Source: the human T2T-CHM13v2.0 reference genome, Homo sapiens. Taken from it: a stretch of 64,000 bases of DNA. The notes beneath the pieces are model-generated. The model was given only the letters and a program-made list of their open reading frames with translations. It had not been told where the DNA came from and did no database searches. The stretch lies in the NCBI RefSeq assembly GCF_009914755.1, contig NC_060925.1; one strand, given 5' to 3'. Numbering within the stretch: the first letter of the stretch is position 1; each line of letters opens with the position of its first letter. Both the position numbers and the translations under genes were made by a program. Below, piece after piece: positions 951 to 58,461 of this stretch.

Positions 951-1399
951 GATCTTGATTCATAAATAAGGCTGGCATCCTGCTCCATATCTGTTAATCA
1001 TAGCTCCTAGACTCTGTGGTCTGCTCTCCCCAGGGCTTGCTGCCTGCTCCCAAGATCCTTGGTCACTGGTATGGGTCTGGCTTTAATCAGAAAAGCCCTC
1101 CTTAGGTCCAAGATATTACAACCACCTGATGATAAGTCCCTTCACTGCCCAGAGATTCTAGCTGTGGAGCCTCTAGTAGCCTTAATTTTTTGGATACAAG
1201 GAGTGAAGCAGAACAGATCCATGTTTGTTCTGCTCTCAGGCTTTATAATTCATATACTTGGCTTAAAATGGCCACAGAGATAGTCACTGCAAAATTTCAA
1301 TATTGCAAAATTTGGGCCATTTTCAAGTAATGCCAGGCCCCAGTTTATCCCCCAATTTCAGGGGTGGTATTTATGAGCCACCTCTCAGCCAATCGGCAC

Positions 1400-1773
1400 A
1401 ACAGACTTTCCTGGACATATATACTTGTTCAAAGATGGGTTCATTATGACTCAATCACAGAATGAGAAGTGATAAAAAATTCTGCTAGGACTTCTGAGTG
1501 AGTCTCTTGTTTTTCCTAGGAGTAGAATTTGGGAGAATGTAAAGTCTGCAGCTGCTACAGCCATCGTGAGACCACATGTGGCCTGAGAATGGTGTTAATA
1601 CTGAGAAAGTTGAGTTAAGAGAAGGAGAAAAACAGATTGGGTCCTTTGAGCCCTGTATCAAGATGCACAAGATGTCAGATTTATTTGTGGATTATTCATT
1701 TACAAGAACCAATGAGTTCTCTATTTTTGCTTAAGCTAATTTAGGCTTGGACTGAAGAATCCTACTTATATAG
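1400..1773 (+). mobile_element. Old MLT1 (J/K-like) LTR fragment
   Basis: tttgagccctgtatcaag..accaatgagttctctatttttgcttaagctaatttagg..gaatcctacttatata. Confidence 0.55.
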
Positions 1774-33203: not shown

Positions 33204-33575
<372 letters not shown>

Positions 33576-35295
33576 ACGGTCAGCCACAAATTCTTATTGG
33601 CTCCACCATATTAGCTTCCAGTCTCATTCCCTGATTCCCAAGACATTCAGAGAGGTTTCAGGATGATGAGGTCAACAGATAAGTGTGAGAAGCCAAAAGG
33701 GTGCTGTGGGATCCCATGGAGGAAAGCAGTGAAGTCTAACTGGGGGCATCTTGACAAATTTCCTAAAGAGAAGGACTTAGGACTGTTTCTTATAGGGTGG
33801 CTGGATTTCTCAAGGTGGAGAAAGGGGAAAGAGGGCTTGTGGGCCCTGGCAGAATCTTCTGTGTGAGCAAAGACCCAGAGATAGGGAATCACGTGTGCAT
33901 CTGCAGTGTGGTGAATATTCCAGTATGACGAGGGCATAGAGGAAAAAGATGACGTCTAGGAGGTGGTCTTGCTAAGGGCATACTCTAGAGTTTTCTATGC
34001 CCTACTTAGGAGTTTGACTTTTATTTCTGAGACAACTAAAACCCACTAAAGGGCACAGTGATGGAGAAGGAGGCCTTACTGATGTGTGCCCTTGGCCATG
34101 TCAGAAGCTGTAGACAGTGAGAATAGGCTCAGTGCAGTTTATTCCCACCGAAGAGGCAAGCACATGACAGGTAAGAGGGAACTAATGTTTGGAGGCAGTC
34201 TACCATGGCCCAGGGCTGTGTGAGGTATTTTTGTTCCTAGCACAACAACCCCATGGGAGAAGCATTATAAACCCCCTTTTATAGGGGGGAATTGAGGCTC
34301 AGAGAGAATAGACGTCCCTCTGAAGATCACACAGCTAGCAATGAGGCAGAGTCAGTATTTTGCCTTGGGTCTACCTAACACCCTTGGCCTAAACTCTTAC
34401 TGATGTCCTACTTTGCTTTTCAAGATCCAAGCAAGCAGGCCAAAGCCACACATTTCCCAGGAGACAAGCCACAGGCCTTGTCAAAAGTCTCCTGATCCTC
34501 TAGGTAGAAATGACCACTACATTTTGGCCCTATTTTTGTTGAAATCACCAGTATCTGTAACTGTGTGCTCTTTGAGGACCTATCTCCTCTCTGTGTTCCT
34601 AGAATCTGGCAAAGGGCCTGGCACAGGGTAGATGATCAGTCTCTGTTTGTAGAATGAATGAGCAAATTAATGATCAGACTGGGATTTTTCTAATTCCTCT
34701 TGGAGTTCATGGCCCTCTTAATTGGAAGCCAAAGCCAAAAGCAACCCTTGCAGTTTTCAGAAAGAGGCATGCTGAGGCTGAGGGCTGTGAGGATGACACA
34801 CAGTTCTAGCATCAGAACCAAATTTACAGCAAATAGTTCCCATAAACAGCACAAGCAACTCAGTTAGGCTAATTTATGTTCACACCAGGGCTGTCCTGGC
34901 CCCCAAAGCCCAGAGCTCTTTACAATTCCAAAATGATTAAAAGCATCATACAAACCCATATTTTCCATTTTTATTAAAAGCACTAAGGCGGGCAGTGCTT
35001 TCTGCATGTCAATGGGGAGCTACTTTCTGACCCAGGGAGAAAAGCCAAGGCAGAATCTGCACATCCAGCTCTGGGTATCCTTCTGCCTCAAAACCGCACT
35101 ATCCTTCTGTCCGTTAGAGGAGTTCTGCCCCTTTCACCCACTTCCTCTGCGCCATAGCCTGCCCCACCCAAGCCCACCTTTGCTCAAACTATGTTCAGTT
35201 AGAGGCACAACCCTACTTAAGGTCTTTAAAGACTTTACTGTCCAAGCTTCTTAACCTGACATCCAAGGAAGGCCTTTCCCAGAATGGTGCAAACT

Positions 35296-40682: not shown

Positions 40683-43600
40683 ATCATCTAATTGTATAAT
40701 GAGGAAACCAAGGAGCAAGAGGAGAAGGAACCTGCTTAAGCTTTCATCATGTACTGGCCACCAGAGTCGCAAATGTTGGCCAACATCAGGAGGCTGGTTT
40801 GAGGAAAAAATACTTCCGTAGCTTTTGAAAGTATTAGTCGACTTCAAAATGTGCAAACCCTTTGACCCAGTAATTCTACTGTTAGGAAATTAGCTTAATG
40901 GTTAATTAGCTGAAATGATGAAGATTTAGCTATAAGGAAGTTTATCAAAGCACATTAAGAAAGACAATAGTTACATAAACTGAAATTTACTTTATGTCAG
41001 ACATTGTCCTAGGTGCTTTGCATACATTCTCATTAAATCCTCAAAACAACCTTTCATCTAAGATGAAAAAACTGATACTCAGGTTAATTAATTTTCTCAA
41101 GTACACACAGTTAATAATGTTAAGAACTTGGGTTGGAATCCACATCTATTTGATTCTAAAACATCTCTTATACCATACCTTCTGTATAAAGTCAGAAAGT
41201 CATCTTCAGGGGCCCCAAATGGAAATGCTAATGATTGGGAATTGGTTAAATACATTATGTGCATTAATACAATAAAATACAATAAGCCATTATATAAGCA
41301 CTCTCCTCCAGGGTCACTTGTCACATGTCATGTTGTAGGTTAATATCTGATGATGTAGTATATAGTAAAAAAAAAAGGTTGATTATACATGTAACTTAGT
41401 GTGTGACATGTAGATACATTTACTGGTTAGAGTGGGTAGATAAATAAATATGAAAACATGAATCTCCATTATTTCTGGATAGGATTACAGGCAAATTTTA
41501 AGTTTGATTTTTAATATTTATAATTTGCTACAATGAACAAAGGATGAATTTAATGAGAAGAAAAAAAGAATTTATATTTCAAAACAAAGAGGTTTCCAGT
41601 ACGTAGGGAGACAGGATTTCCTAAAAAGATATTTCTAAGACAGCATCTTTAGTTTGAATTTATGCTTCATCATATTAGCCTTTACCTCTCCAGACAAAGT
41701 TCATCCACCTATTTGGTAAGTCAAATTGGCAGTGTTTCACTAGTTAAAAGGGTTAATTTCCTTGGACTTAGCAGACGTACCTGGGCAGTTAACGCTGCTA
41801 AGGCACCTGAGTATCAGAGGGATTTTAGGGCATGTTCCCTCTGTTCTGTGGTTAGAGGAATCTAATAATATCCCACCATTTCTTTTTCTTCTTCCTTCTC
41901 CTGAAAATGCAGCAGGTAAAGTTCCTGATTGAATTCCATCTTGATTTCATTAAATATTCATAAAGGCCAATTAGAAGAGGAGAGAAAGAGCCCCCTTCTA
42001 TCATCCTGTCAGAGGTCGGCTTGTTGACCGTCAGGCATGGGCCAGCCAGTGGTCAACATGGCCATGATCTTCCTGCACTTTCCTCTGGGGTCACTTCTCA
42101 CCATCCCAGCAAGGGACCCAGGACTGGCAGGAAATGAGAGGCAGAGGCCTGGCAAGGAGAGACAGCTTATAATTCTGACAGCAAGGTGCTTAGCATGTAG
42201 AATGCAAAATGCAAATGCTGGGAAACATCCTCAATCATTTCTGGAATGGAAATCTTTCCCTAATGAGCGATGACGATGGCAGAGAGCTGATTGCACTGAA
42301 GAAAAACTGCTTAAAATTCATAATCAATCAAGCGAGTTGATTTTAGTCTTTTGTAACCAAGCTATCCCATTCTAGCTTCCTTTATTGGCCAACTGGAGCT
42401 TATCACTCCCTACCTTGTTCCCTTCATCTAGCTCAGATGGTAGGTCCCACTGGAGACCCTGAAAGAGACTCGAGCATATCAGGAAGGTAGACTGGTAGGA
42501 CTCAGAAGAGCGCATCCATTCTGATCATTTAATTTTACAGTTGGGGTGTGGAGGATAAGAGAAGGCAAAGGACTTGACAATGTTACATAGGCAGTGGCAG
42601 TGCAACTAGCTTTCTGTCTGCAAGCCATTGAAGAATGCTATGAAAGAAAATGTACCAAAAGTCTAGAGTTCTACATTTGGGACCGGTTTTACTATGTGAT
42701 ACTGGAACAAAGCTGTGTAGTATTGGAACTAAGTGTTTATGCTATTTGCAGGTTGCCATTCAAAAATGGCGATGGCAATAATAATGCCTTTCTCCCTACT
42801 TCACAGGGTTCTTGTGACACTCACATAATAAAAAAGGATATAAAAGTGCTTTGAAAATGGCAAAGCACCCTGCTATTATTAAACATCTCCTTTCATTTTC
42901 CAGGCCCCTAGGTACTCCCCCTCTAAATCATATTCCACACAGGTATCTGCAAGTTCTTTTTAAAACTCCGATCTCACCTTGCCATTTCCCTGTTTAACTC
43001 CTCTCACATTGTCCTTTGGACAAAGTCTAAGCTCTAAGTCTGGCATTGAGGAACCTTCACCATTTTGGGAATTTGTCTTCTCTTCTCGAGCTTCAGTTTC
43101 CTGTTCATAAAACAAGAAAACTAATACCTACCTGAGAAGGCTGCTGTGATTAGAATTCACATCTACAAAGTGATCAGAATGGCTTCTGGCACATCATAGC
43201 TGGCCTATGTAGCTTAATTATAATCTTACTAAGTTTCACAACAATTCTGGAAGATGGCTACAGAAGAAGCAACTTCCACTCTGATTTTACAAGACACGAG
43301 AAGCCCAGAGAGGTGAAGACATTTAATAATGGCTGCACAGCCAGAACTCAGACCTGAGATTTCACTCTTGGGCTTTTGGCTCATGGAGGCAGGGGATGCA
43401 ATGGGGAGTAGGTAGGAGGAGAAGCAGGTGTGGTGCTACCTCAGGCTGCCAGCATGAAATGATTCTTTTCTGAGATACCTCTGCCTAGTCCAAAAGGTAG
43501 AGAATATAATTTTCCTTTCTTTCTTTTTTTTTTACTAGTACAAATAAAAGGATTTATTTTGAAGCAAACTAATACTTGAAAAAAAGCAGCTTTAATTAGA

Positions 43601-43774
43601 CAATGATACAAAAGTACGTATTCTTTTTGGGACTAGTTCTGAATGAGACTTTTGGGGTCTTCAAGGGTTTCACAGGCTAAGTGCACTTGTTATTTCAGAT
43701 TTCTAATTTGCCTTTTAAATGGCAGATTTATCCCTAGTACAACTTTTACGCTTATTAACATTGATGCCATTTGT

Positions 43775-45547
<1,773 letters not shown>

Positions 45548-45619
45548 ATGCCCTTTGTGTTTGATCCACAAAAAGGGAGAGACATCCAGAGCTGAAGAGT
45601 TTTCCCTGAGAATTTTGTC

Positions 45620-45989
45620 AAGAGCGTCGCTCTCCAGGTACACGCCCCCCGTCAAAGGCGGCTCTAAGGTCCTCTCACGAGGGAGCGCCCGTGGTACCTC
45701 CTTACTCTCAGCTATCTGTCTCTCCCCGACCCCAGAGTGATTGCGCTGCTTCCTCCAGAGGGCGGGAACCTTGGACGTGGCGGGGCTGGGTCAGCCACGT
45801 CGCTGGGCCTGAGGCGCTCGGCTCAGCCTCCCTGCAGGCTGGCCTTCCGCACCGTCGTGATGCCCCCGACAGGCCCCACACCTGCCCAGGTAGAACGGCG
45901 CCAGCCCGAGTGACGCCTGGCGTGTAGCCGTGGGCAGGCGGCTCAGTGCCGCGGGGCGGGCGGGCGCCACACCTGTGCGGGCGAGGGCC
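45620..45989. promoter_or_regulatory. Intragenic CpG island with GC boxes, a CTCF-like motif (45752-45765) and paired GACGTGGC elements
   Basis: About 35 CpGs in ~370 bp by hand count, in an otherwise CpG-depleted window; ggggcgggcgggcg at ~45953-45966. Confidence 0.85.
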
Positions 45990-47094
45990 TATAATTTTAT
46001 TTTCTAACATGATCACAAGGCCATAGGTTCTAGGCCTGTCCAACTTCTCTTGCCTCATTTCAAACTAGTGGAAAATGAAATGAAGCAAAGGATGGTTATC
46101 TTATGCTAAACAGTTGCTTGAATAAAAAAGGAAAAATGAAATTCTCAAACAATAAGTTAATAGTTTTTTTTTTTTTTCTCAGCTTCTCCTCTAAGCCGCA
46201 TTTCCAGGCAGCAAAGAGAAATTGAGTGGAAATGCATAAATTGTTGCAAACAAATGTCTCATTCAAGAGAGATTTTCTCAAGATACCAGGCTCCATATGA
46301 GGTAGCTGGGTGAGTCTTTGGATGGGAGTAGAGAAACCTGGATCTGGCCTCACTTGGCTTAATCTTTTCTTTCCTGTTCTTCTTATGCATCAACTCAGGC
46401 CTGCTACAAGTCCTAGATCCACACTGATATGAAACAAAATGACGAGCATTCCAAAAATTCAACTTTATTCTTTCATTCATTTAACAAATATTTATTGAGC
46501 ATCTACTATGTCCCAAGCTCTTTGCTAGGTGGAATACAAAGTTAAGAAAACAGACACAGATTCTGCCTTCATCTAGCATTTACAGTTTATTATGGGAAGA
46601 AAGACTTTTTAAAATAATCAAATATTCATGTATATGATTTCACCCTTTAATAAGTATCATGAAGAAATAAATATTGGGAGCTAGGAAATATTTAACAGGA
46701 ATATCTGATATAATTAGGGGCTGGGGTGGGGTCAGAAAAGATTTCCATGAGGAGGAAACATTTGAGCTGAGGGGCATTTGGAGTTATGAAGGCAAAGGGA
46801 TGTGAGTGGGGTGGGGTTGGAGTGCTCCAGTCAGAGAGGACAGCTTGTATTAAGGCTCTGAGGTAAAAGGGAGCAATGGCATATTCAAGGAATTGAGAGA
46901 CCAGAGTGTCTGGAGTATAGAGATGGGGACCAAGAAAGATGAGGCTAGAGAGGAGAGAAGGGTGCAGACCCCACACAGCCTTCTAGGCCAGGGAATATAA
47001 GCTGGGAAACAAATTATTCTAAGCATGAGAGAAGCCATTAAAGAATTTTTAAAAGAGGATGGGCATGATCAGATTTGTATTGCAAAAAATCCAC

Positions 47095-49040
47095 TAAATC
47101 CTAGCAGGCTTTGTTATAAAAATGTCATACTAATTCTGAAATTCATATGAAAATGCAAAGGACCTAGAATACCCAAAATAACTTTGAGAAAGAACAAAGT
47201 TGATGTACTGACACTACCTGATTTAAAGACTTATTATAAACCTACAGTAATCAAGACAGTGTGGTTTGGTTTTAGCATAATTAGATCCATAAAACAGAAC
47301 AGAGTCCAGAAATAGACCCACACATATATAGACAACCAGTTTTCAACAAAGATTTGAAAGCAATTCAGTGGAGAAAAAAACAGTTTTTTCAACAAATGGA
47401 ACTGAAACAATTGGTTATCCATATGGGGGAAAATAAGAATTTTGATCCATACCTCACACCACATATGTAAATTCATTCAAAATGGCACATAGTCCTAAAT
47501 GTAAAACCTGAAACTCTAAAATTCTGGAAGAAAACATAGGAGAAGACCTTCATAACCTTAGATTAGGGAAAGATTTCTTAGAGACAACACCAAAAGCATG
47601 ATCCATAAAAGAGCAAATTGATCAAAATTTCAAAACTTCTAATTGAAAGAACTGTTAAGAGAATTAAAAGACAAACCATAGATTAGGAGAAAATATTTGC
47701 AAATAATATATCTGATAAAGGGCTTGAATCTAGAATATGTATATAAAAACTCTAAAATGAAATAATAAAAAAGCAACCTAATTTTAGTAAAAGCGGGCAA
47801 AAGATCTGAACAGATGCTTTACTGAAGGAGATGTATAGATGGTAAATAAGCACATAAGAAAGGCTCAATATCATTAGTCATTAGGAAAATGCAAATTAAA
47901 ACCACAATGAGATATCACTAGACAACTATTAGAATGGATAAAATTAAGACTGCCCATACCAAGTGTTGGTAAGGAATGAAGGAACTGGAATTGTCATACA
48001 CTACTGTTGGGAATATAAAATAGCACAGCCACCTTGGAATGAAGTTTGGCAATATCTTAAAATATTATATGTAAACTATCATATGATCCAGACATTCCAC
48101 TCCTGGGTATTTTTCCAAGAGAAATTAAAGTATATGTCCTTGCAAAAAGTTGTATATGGGTGTTAAAAGTAGCTTTATTCATAATAGTCAAAACCTGGAG
48201 AAAATTCAAATGTGCACCAATTCGAACCTGGAAATAAGCAAATTGTGGTATATCTATACAATAAAATACTACTCGACAATAAAAACGAATGACCCACTGA
48301 TGCACACAACATGGATGAATCTCAGAATGATTATTCTGAGTAAAAGAAGCCTGACAAAAAGCATACATATTGTATAATTCCATTTTTATAAAATTTTAGA
48401 AAATGCTGTATAATTCTGTTTATGTAAAATCTAGAAAATGCAAACTATAGTGACAGAAAGAAGAGCTTGTGGTTATGTGGGGATGAGTGGGAATAGGGGA
48501 GGGAGTGAGAAGAAGAGATTACATAGGGGCACAAGGAAAAGTTTGAGGGTGGTATATTGTTTATAATTTGATTGTGGTAATAGTGTATTGATCCATTTTT
48601 ATGCTGCTGATAAAGACACACCTGAGACTGGGCAATTTACAAAAGAAAGAAGTTTGTTGGGCTTACAGTTCCACATGGCTGGGGAGGCCTCACAATCATG
48701 GCGGAAGGTGAAGGGCACGTCTTACATGGCAGCAGACAAGAGACGAGAGCTTGTGCAGGGAAACTCCCCATTATATAATCATCAGATCTCATGAGACTTG
48801 TTCACTATCATGAGAACAGCACAGGAAAGACCTGCCCCCATAATTCAATTACCTCCCACCAGGTCCCTCCCACAACACTTGGAAATTCAAGCTGAGATTT
48901 GGGTGGGGACACAGCCAAACCATATCAGATAGTTTCTTCAGTGTATACATATGCCAAAATGTATCAAATTGTACAGTTTAAATATGTGCATTTTATTGTA
49001 TATTAATTATATCTCAACTAATTTTTTTAAAATAAAAAAC
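47095..49040 (+). mobile_element. L1MB/MC-type 3' segment
   Basis: aattcatatgaaatgcaaaggacctagaata..ccagaaatagacccacacatatat..aattatatctcaac. Confidence 0.88.
48584..48927 (-). mobile_element. THE1B-like solo LTR
   Basis: tgtatt..gctgctgataaagaca..cctgagactggg...ggggacacagccaaaccatatca. TSD aatag/gatag. Confidence 0.93.

Positions 49041-58078: not shown

Positions 58079-58461
<383 letters not shown>

What the first reader, a model, noticed from the sequence alone, without database searches (positions are those of the whole stretch)
43505..46005. The window's only CpG island appears to have arrived as part of a 2.47-kb retrotransposed RNA
Seen: a 16-bp direct repeat (43505-43520 and 45990-46005, 14/16 identical) brackets one unit. 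On the minus strand it reads GC-rich island (45989-45620), short linker, truncated L1MA (45547-43775), ~240 nt of unique sequence, AATAAA, 19 nt, poly(A). The island stops abruptly at the right-hand repeat, and the target reads TTCT/AA. Established: TSD, poly(A) and a TT/AA-type nick are the hallmarks of L1 target-primed reverse transcription. Inference: a CGI-initiated non-coding transcript, or an RT template-switch chimera, was retrocopied into the AGBL4 intron in the host sense orientation, importing promoter sequence. A repeat masker would split it into L1, Alu and an orphan CGI and miss the single event.
Basis: partly seen in the sequence, partly recalled or inferred. Interest (0 to 1): 0.85.

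Follow-up and report, generated by a model that had tools for sequence, protein, structure and literature searches.

The report
Retrocopy of the RAB33B divergent lncRNA
The CpG-rich block in this AGBL4 intron is the first exon of a spliced non-coding RNA from the RAB33B promoter on chromosome 4, copied here through RNA by the L1 machinery; this is an ordinary processed pseudogene, unusual only in having a non-coding parent.

Summary
The 16-bp repeat is 14 of 16 identical and has no third copy in 64 kb. On the minus strand it brackets a GC-rich block, an L1 fragment, a unique tail, AATAAA, a 19-nt spacer and a poly(A) remnant.

The source locus was found in the same assembly, on contig 4 (chromosome 4). 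Window 45988-45625 matches C4:142773684-142773336. Window 45624-43534 matches C4:142733674-142731580 in one collinear piece, including the L1 fragment and the Alu with its own target duplication. The 39.7 kb between the two chr4 blocks starts with GT and ends with AG and is missing from the window.

So this is a processed retrocopy of a spliced, polyadenylated two-exon RNA. That RNA starts in the CpG island shared head-to-head with RAB33B. Published RAB33B-AS1 primers map to the same strand of that island.

The template-switch alternative is rejected. The Alu was in the parent RNA and is not a later insertion. Only about a quarter of the parental island was imported, its transcribed flank, and nothing shows that it acts as a promoter here. 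CpG retention fits a young age, roughly 15-25 My on recalled rates. The empty site in other primates could not be tested.

The parts
43505..43520 (.). Target-site duplication, the copy next to the poly(A) end (TATAATTTTCCTTTCT).
   Evidence: 14 of 16 identical to 45990-46005, with no third copy in the window at up to 2 mismatches.
43521..43533 (-). Poly(A) remnant, reading A10 G AA on the minus strand. It is untemplated.
   Evidence: homology to chr4 stops here, and the chr4 parent continues with TTATAAGAG instead of A's.
43534..43774 (-). Unique 3' end of parental exon 2, with AATAAA at 43558-43553 and 19 nt between the hexamer and the A-run.
   Evidence: 94% identity to C4:142731579-142731830; 225 of 240 aligned positions identical. 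Today's chr4 copy reads AATTAA at the hexamer.
43775..44546 (-). L1 fragment covering the ORF2 C-terminus and 3' UTR. It is part of parental exon 2.
Evidence: matches ORF2p residues 1156-1221, E 8e-24; 745 of 772 aligned positions identical to chr4.
44547..44867 (-). Alu in sense orientation with its own flanking duplication (TGCCCACTTTTTT at 44547 and 44854). It was inherited from the parent RNA.
   Evidence: Rfam Metazoa_SRP matches on the minus strand; repeat families D2 and D12; the Alu and both flanking copies are present at the same place in chr4, 264 of 284 aligned positions identical.
44868..45547 (-). L1 fragment, ORF2 part upstream of the Alu. It is part of parental exon 2.
Evidence: matches ORF2p residues 942-1007, E 3e-16; 650 of 678 aligned positions identical to chr4.
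45548..45624 (-).
   Evidence: 97% identity to C4:142733600-142733675; 74 of 74 aligned positions identical; at chr4 the exon is preceded by a pyrimidine tract and AG.
45625..45988 (-). Parental exon 1, which is the CpG-rich block.
   Evidence: matches C4:142773684-142773336, 317 of 350 aligned positions identical plus a 14-bp indel; at chr4 the exon is followed by GTAAGG. GC 0.70, CpG o/e 0.77.
45989..45989 (-). One extra G at the 5' end of the copy, where chr4 has C.
   Evidence: That it is a cap-derived untemplated G is an inference from recalled literature. It could equally be a substitution.
45990..46005 (.). Target-site duplication, the copy next to the 5' end of the retrocopy (TATAATTTTATTTTCT), followed by AA.

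Best explanation
Window 43505-46005 is a single L1-mediated processed retrocopy on the minus strand. Its template was a spliced, polyadenylated, two-exon RNA of about 2.46 kb from chromosome 4. That RNA starts in the CpG island shared head-to-head with RAB33B and is most likely an isoform of the lncRNA named RAB33B-AS1.

Exon 1 (365 nt) lies inside the island. Exon 2 (2.09 kb) carries an old 5'-truncated L1 fragment, an Alu inserted into that L1, and the poly(A) signal.

The mechanism is inferred from the classical model, recalled. L1 endonuclease nicked the + strand at TTCT/AA. The T-rich 3' end primed on the RNA's poly(A). The cDNA was copied to, or very near, the RNA's 5' end. Second-strand nicking 16 bp away produced the duplication.

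The CpG island in the AGBL4 intron is therefore exon sequence that has not yet decayed. Nothing here shows it is a working regulatory element.
For: Shown by tools:
- The unique parts of the unit each have exactly one other match in the 3.1-Gb assembly, and all of these lie at one chr4 locus in the same order and strand.
- The chr4 gap of 39,661 bp begins with GTAAGG and ends with a pyrimidine tract plus AG. The window joins the two exons exactly at these sites.
- Homology is confined to window 43533-45988. The window's A-run replaces unrelated chr4 sequence, and the sequence upstream of the chr4 match is absent from the window.
- A 16-bp duplication, 14 of 16 identical, sits exactly at both ends of the homology and has no other copy in the window.
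- AATAAA lies 19 nt before the A-run.
- The ORF 163 bp from the chr4 5' end, on the opposite strand, matches Rab-33B at E 4e-39.
- The RAB33B-AS1 qPCR primers printed in PMC11652561 (passages read) map to the same strand of the same island, at L002 1403-1421 and 1234-1253.
Against: - The empty site in other primates could not be examined, because no primate genome is held.
- The published RAB33B-AS1 primers lie in what is intron for the retrocopied isoform. The parent isoform is therefore inferred and was not seen in an annotation.
- The present chr4 copy reads AATTAA where the retrocopy has AATAAA. Use of that poly(A) site today is not assured.
- The target TTCT/AA departs by one base from the recalled TTTT/AA consensus.
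Confidence: 0.95

Rival explanations
1. The unit is a template-switch chimera. L1 reverse transcriptase started on an L1 or 3'-transduced RNA and jumped to an unrelated GC-rich RNA, as in U6/L1 chimeric retrogenes.
For: The unit reads as a GC-rich block followed by a 5'-truncated L1 and a poly(A). This layout is what suggested the idea.
Against: The GC-rich block, the 77-nt unique stretch, the L1 fragment with the same truncation point, the Alu and the unique tail are all collinear at one chr4 locus. The only discontinuity is a canonical GT-AG intron. Rfam finds no small RNA in the GC-rich block: all 5 matches at E up to 1 lie in 44179-44852.
Confidence: 0.01
2. The unit arose by DNA-level duplication from chr4 followed by a 39.7-kb deletion, with the flanking repeat being a chance match in AT-rich DNA.
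For: Short direct repeats are common locally: 19 families in 3 kb.
Against: The supposed deletion would have to hit GT and AG exactly. The 3' end would have to stop 19 nt after AATAAA and gain an A-run. The 16-mer has no other copy in 64 kb at up to 2 mismatches, where 0.17 are expected.
Confidence: 0.01
3. Same origin, but the imported island is functional. It has stayed unmethylated in the germ line and works as an orphan or bidirectional promoter inside the AGBL4 intron.
For: - The copy keeps 35 CpG at o/e 0.77.
- Of the CpGs still present in chr4, the retrocopy lost 10 of 35 in exon 1 against 7 of 12 in exon 2, Fisher p 0.087. Its exon-1 loss does not differ from that of the parental island, 7 of 32, p 0.58.
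- 3 of the window's 6 GGGCGG boxes lie in the block.
- Retrotransposed core promoters are documented (PMC2386082, abstract read; PMC4772013, passages read: about 3% of expressed retrocopies).
Against: - The p of 0.087 rests on 12 CpGs.
- A loss of 29% is about what recalled CpG decay rates give for fully methylated DNA at this age.
- Non-CpG divergence is higher in exon 1 (17 of 267) than in exon 2 (71 of 2029), p 0.027, so there is no sign of constraint.
- Nothing upstream of the parental RNA's 5' end was copied.
- RefSeq lists no transcript or functional element at 43505-46005 (hub table).
Confidence: 0.12

Closest known systems
L1-mediated processed pseudogenes (retrocopies) of spliced RNA polymerase II transcripts
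   Same: Intron removed at GT-AG, untemplated poly(A) after AATAAA, a 16-bp target-site duplication, a T-rich nick site, and homology limited to the transcribed region.
   Different: The parent is a non-coding divergent transcript, not an mRNA. Protein-based pseudogene pipelines would not find it, and RefSeq lists nothing here (hub table). Most of its length is itself repeat, L1 plus Alu.
Retrotransposed promoters (Okamura and Nakai 2008, PMC2386082, abstract read; Carelli et al. 2016, PMC4772013, passages read)
   Same: Part of a CpG-island promoter region was transcribed, reverse transcribed and integrated elsewhere.
   Different: In those cases promoter activity at the new site was shown with TSS data. 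Here only the sequence transfer is shown, 349 of 1460 bp of the parental island.
Processed pseudogenes whose parents carry a sense Alu in the 3' part of the RNA (Farre et al. 2016, PMC5199112, abstract read)
   Same: The parent RNA holds a sense-oriented Alu in its terminal exon. That paper reports such Alus as over-represented among parents of processed pseudogenes.
   Different: The paper concerns 3' UTRs of protein-coding genes. Whether the Alu helped in this case was not tested.
U6/L1-type chimeric retrogenes and L1 3' transduction
   Same: An L1 piece sits inside a unit with a poly(A) tail and target duplication.
   Different: The L1 piece is a passive passenger inside a host exon. There is no junction between RNAs from different loci.

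Membership tests
L1-mediated processed retrocopy | Collinear with a parent locus, with introns missing at canonical splice sites. | tested here: met
   one 39,661-bp GT...AG intron is absent and the junction is exact.
L1-mediated processed retrocopy | Untemplated poly(A) at the 3' end, downstream of a poly(A) signal. | tested here: met
   AATAAA, 19 nt, then A10GAA. The parent continues with TTATAAGAG.
L1-mediated processed retrocopy | Target-site duplication flanking exactly the copied segment. | tested here: met
   16 bp, 14 of 16 identical, abutting the homology limits 43533 and 45988-45989. There is no other copy in 64 kb.
L1-mediated processed retrocopy | L1 endonuclease-type nick site (TTTT/AA-like; the consensus is recalled). 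| tested here: met
   TTCT/AA on the strand that primes on the poly(A). It departs from the recalled consensus by one base.
L1-mediated processed retrocopy | Empty site with a single copy of the duplicated 16-mer in species that diverged before the insertion. | not testable with these tools
   No primate or other mammalian genome apart from the window's own assembly is held.
CpG island (Gardiner-Garden and Frommer criteria, recalled: at least 200 bp, GC at least 0.5, o/e at least 0.6) | Length, GC content and CpG o/e. | tested here: met
   370 bp, GC 0.70, o/e 0.77.
CpG island (Takai and Jones criteria, recalled: at least 500 bp, GC at least 0.55, o/e at least 0.65) | Length of at least 500 bp. 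| tested here: not met
   the GC-rich block is 370 bp, or 442 bp when the 72 bp at 45548-45619, which hold no CpG, are included.
Template-switch chimeric retrogene (U6/L1 type) | 5' and 3' parts derive from RNAs of different loci, joined without a splice junction. | tested here: not met
   all parts come from one locus, and the single junction is a GT-AG splice.
Retrotransposed functional promoter | Transcription start sites and an unmethylated state at the copied sequence. | not testable with these tools
   No CAGE, methylation or chromatin data are held. RefSeq lists no transcript here (hub table).
RAB33B-AS1 (parent gene identity) | Same strand and same promoter island as the named lncRNA. 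| tested here: met
   the published primers map to L002 1403-1421(-) and 1234-1253(+), 80-267 bp beyond the exon-1 donor on the same strand. The annotated exon structure of RAB33B-AS1 was not seen.

The most novel reading that the evidence does not exclude
The retrocopied flank of the RAB33B/RAB33B-AS1 bidirectional island may have stayed unmethylated and may fire as an ape-specific orphan promoter inside the AGBL4 intron. This could happen in either direction.

In the sense direction it would re-create a copy of the parent lncRNA, ending at the imported AATAAA. In the antisense direction, the three GGGCGG boxes on the + strand are followed by the TATAA of the target-site duplication at 45990.

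The copy would also preserve an ancestral isoform whose poly(A) hexamer is now AATTAA at the parent locus.
Probability: 0.12. Interest if true: 0.45.

Novelty: new member of a known kind. Interest (0 to 1): 0.25.

Why it matters
It explains an orphan CpG island in a 1.5-Mb gene as a by-product of retrotransposition and not as an ancestral regulatory element. That matters when methylation or promoter signals in AGBL4 are interpreted.

It also shows that annotation misses retrocopies of non-coding RNAs. RefSeq lists nothing here, and a repeat masker sees only L1, Alu and unexplained GC-rich DNA.

The case gives a dated natural experiment. One quarter of a bidirectional CpG-island promoter was moved into an intron, so its methylation state and activity can be compared with the parent. 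Beyond that, the mechanism is textbook.

Tried and rejected
- Rfam at E up to 1 over 43300-46300 gave 5 matches, all within 44179-44852 and none in the GC-rich block, so the block is not a known small RNA.
- Pfam on 5 translated L1 pieces gave 0 meaningful families, only one chance Histone_H2A_C match at E 0.24. The PDB sequence search then identified L1 ORF2p.
- Phrase searches for lncRNA retrocopies found 5 papers, none about retrocopies of lncRNAs, and then 0 papers. I therefore cannot say from these searches how often such copies have been described. The searches were narrow, and subscription journals are not held.
- One search call failed because a term was too long. It was reworded.
- The CpG-decay test for germ-line protection of the copied island is inconclusive (p 0.087).
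- Alu subfamily: by eye it looks like an AluS type.
- L1 subfamily (L1MA) was not tested.
Full report
**Observation**

TATAATTTTCCTTTCT at 43505-43520 and TATAATTTTATTTTCT at 45990-46005 are 14 of 16 identical. Short direct repeats are common in this AT-rich DNA, with 19 families in 3 kb. This 16-mer, however, has no third match in the 64-kb window on either strand at up to 2 mismatches. Shuffles expect 0.17 matches, and 0 of 100 shuffles reach 2.

The left copy is followed by T's at 43521-43533, which read A10GAA on the minus strand. On the minus strand AATAAA lies at 43558-43553, with 19 nt between it and the A-run. The right copy directly abuts the GC-rich block.

The block at 45620-45989 has GC 0.70, 35 CpG and o/e 0.77, against o/e 0.15 for the window as a whole. 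Of the 21 200-bp windows that pass GC at least 0.55 and o/e at least 0.6, 18 lie here. The other 3 lie in stretches masked as repeats (hub table).

**The source locus**

The assembly that holds the window can be searched.

- The 442 nt at 45989-45548 (minus strand) have two other matches in 3.1 Gb, both on contig 4. Query 2-365 matches C4:142773684-142773336 at 87% identity. Query 365-442 matches C4:142733675-142733600 at 97%.
- The 3' unique part has one other match, C4:142731830-142731579, at 94%.
- The left flank of the insertion has no second copy.
- BLAST of the whole unit against the fetched chr4 loci shows that window 45625-43533 is collinear with C4:142733675-142731579 in one piece. 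This piece includes the L1 fragment and the Alu.
- In a 6.5-kb stretch of the window, homology to the parental locus is confined to 43533-45988. The only other hits are repeat-to-repeat matches.

**Splicing and 3' end**

On the chr4 minus strand the first block ends ...GAGAGCAACG and is followed by GTAAGG. The second block is preceded by CTTCTTCCCCTTTCTCTTCTAG. The window reads GAGAGCGACG directly joined to CTCTTGAC, so a 39,661-bp GT-AG intron is precisely absent.

At the 3' end the window's A-run replaces chr4's TTATAAGAG. Upstream of the 5' end, chr4 and the window share nothing. The first base of the copy (45989) is G where chr4 has C. This may be the cap-derived extra G known from full-length retrocopies (recalled), or it may be a substitution.

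The direction of copying is unambiguous. Chr4 has the intron and no poly(A). The window has the poly(A) and the duplication.

**What the parent is**

The chr4 5' block lies inside a 1460-bp CpG island (L002 981-2440, 125 CpG, o/e 0.82). An ORF starts 163 bp from the copy's 5' end on the opposite strand. Its first 83 residues match Rab-33B chains at E 4e-39, against 7e-14 for the next Rab. The parent RNA is therefore the divergent partner of RAB33B.

The symbol RAB33B-AS1 occurs in 2 papers of the library. The qPCR primers printed in one of them (PMC11652561, passages read) each map once to L002, at 1403-1421 (minus) and 1234-1253 (plus), and to none of the other 5 loci. That places them on the same strand and in the same island, 80-267 bp beyond the exon-1 donor. 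For the retrocopied isoform this is intron.

I conclude that the parent is RAB33B-AS1 or an isoform that starts with it. I did not see its annotated exon structure.

**The repeats inside**

Two translated pieces of the minus strand match human L1 ORF2p, at residues 942-1007 (E 3e-16) and 1156-1221 (E 8e-24). Pfam had nothing for them. Two Rfam SRP-type matches on the minus strand mark the Alu.

The Alu and both copies of its own flanking duplication (TGCCCACTTTTTT) are present at the same position in chr4. The Alu was therefore already in the parental exon and is not a later insertion into the copy. The L1 piece is likewise a passenger. This excludes a template-switch chimera and an L1 3' transduction.

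**Age**

The table gives the divergence between the copy and the parent.

| Region | Positions differing | K2P |
|---|---|---|
| Exon 2, all sites | 91 of 2077 | 0.045 |
| Exon 2, non-CpG sites | 71 of 2029 | 0.036 |
| Exon 1, all sites | 33 of 350, plus a 14-bp indel | 0.102 |
| Exon 1, non-CpG sites | 17 of 267 | 0.067 |

With recalled hominoid rates of 1.0-1.2e-9 per site per year, this gives 15-23 My. Scaled to a recalled human-macaque divergence of about 6.4%, it gives about 20 My. I read this as an insertion on the ape stem, with wide error. No other primate genome is held, so the empty-site test was not run.

**Is the island more than a fossil?**

CpG loss was counted conditionally: among CpGs that one copy still has, how many has the other copy lost?

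| Lineage | Exon 1 lost | Exon 2 lost | Fisher p |
|---|---|---|---|
| Retrocopy | 10 of 35 | 7 of 12 | 0.087 |
| chr4 parent | 7 of 32 | 12 of 17 | 0.0017 |

The two exon-1 losses do not differ from each other (p 0.58).

This leans toward some protection of the copied island, but it rests on 12 CpGs. A 29% loss is also about what recalled CpG decay rates predict for methylated DNA of this age. Non-CpG divergence is higher in exon 1 than in exon 2 (p 0.027), so there is no sign of constraint.

The copy holds 349 of the 1460 bp of the parental island and nothing upstream of the RNA's 5' end. It does carry 3 of the window's 6 GGGCGG boxes. RefSeq lists no transcript or element here (hub table). 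Promoter import is thus possible, and it has precedent (PMC2386082, abstract read; PMC4772013, passages read: about 3% of expressed retrocopies inherited a parental promoter). It is not shown here.

**Verdict**

The object is a textbook processed retrocopy whose parent happens to be a divergent lncRNA made largely of repeats. It is a new, apparently unannotated member of a known kind, of modest interest. The one open question worth a look is the epigenetic state of the transplanted quarter of a bidirectional island.

Noticed in passing
window 43553-43558 and C4:142731600-142731610 (L005): The retrocopy keeps AATAAA, while the present chr4 parent reads AATTAA at the aligned hexamer. The parent may have lost the signal that made the retrocopied isoform, or the copy may have gained it. 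This was not polarised.
   Followed up: partly
window 45625-45988 versus 43534-45624: Non-CpG divergence from the parent is nearly twice as high in the GC-rich exon 1 (17 of 267) as in exon 2 (71 of 2029), Fisher p 0.027. A 14-bp indel also lies in exon 1. The cause is unknown.
   Followed up: partly
L002 1234-1421 (C4:142773069-142773256): The published RAB33B-AS1 qPCR amplicon lies in the intron of the isoform that was retrocopied, and neither primer matches the window loci. That assay therefore does not cross-amplify the chr1 copy, and it measures a different or unspliced isoform.
   Followed up: yes
window 47789-47906: A weak match (74% over 121 nt) to a stretch of the chr4 parental exon 2 (L003 385-503, the same stretch as L005 2406-2524), outside the retrocopy. 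It is probably another old L1 fragment.
   Followed up: no
window 46700-46900 and 48400-48600: Strong positive GC skew, 0.57 and 0.66 in 200-bp windows, just right of the insertion. These G-rich stretches were not examined.
   Followed up: no
window 33381-33600 and 58121-58320: These are the only other 200-bp windows that pass the loose CpG-island thresholds. Both lie in stretches masked as repeats (hub table) and are probably young Alus.
   Followed up: no
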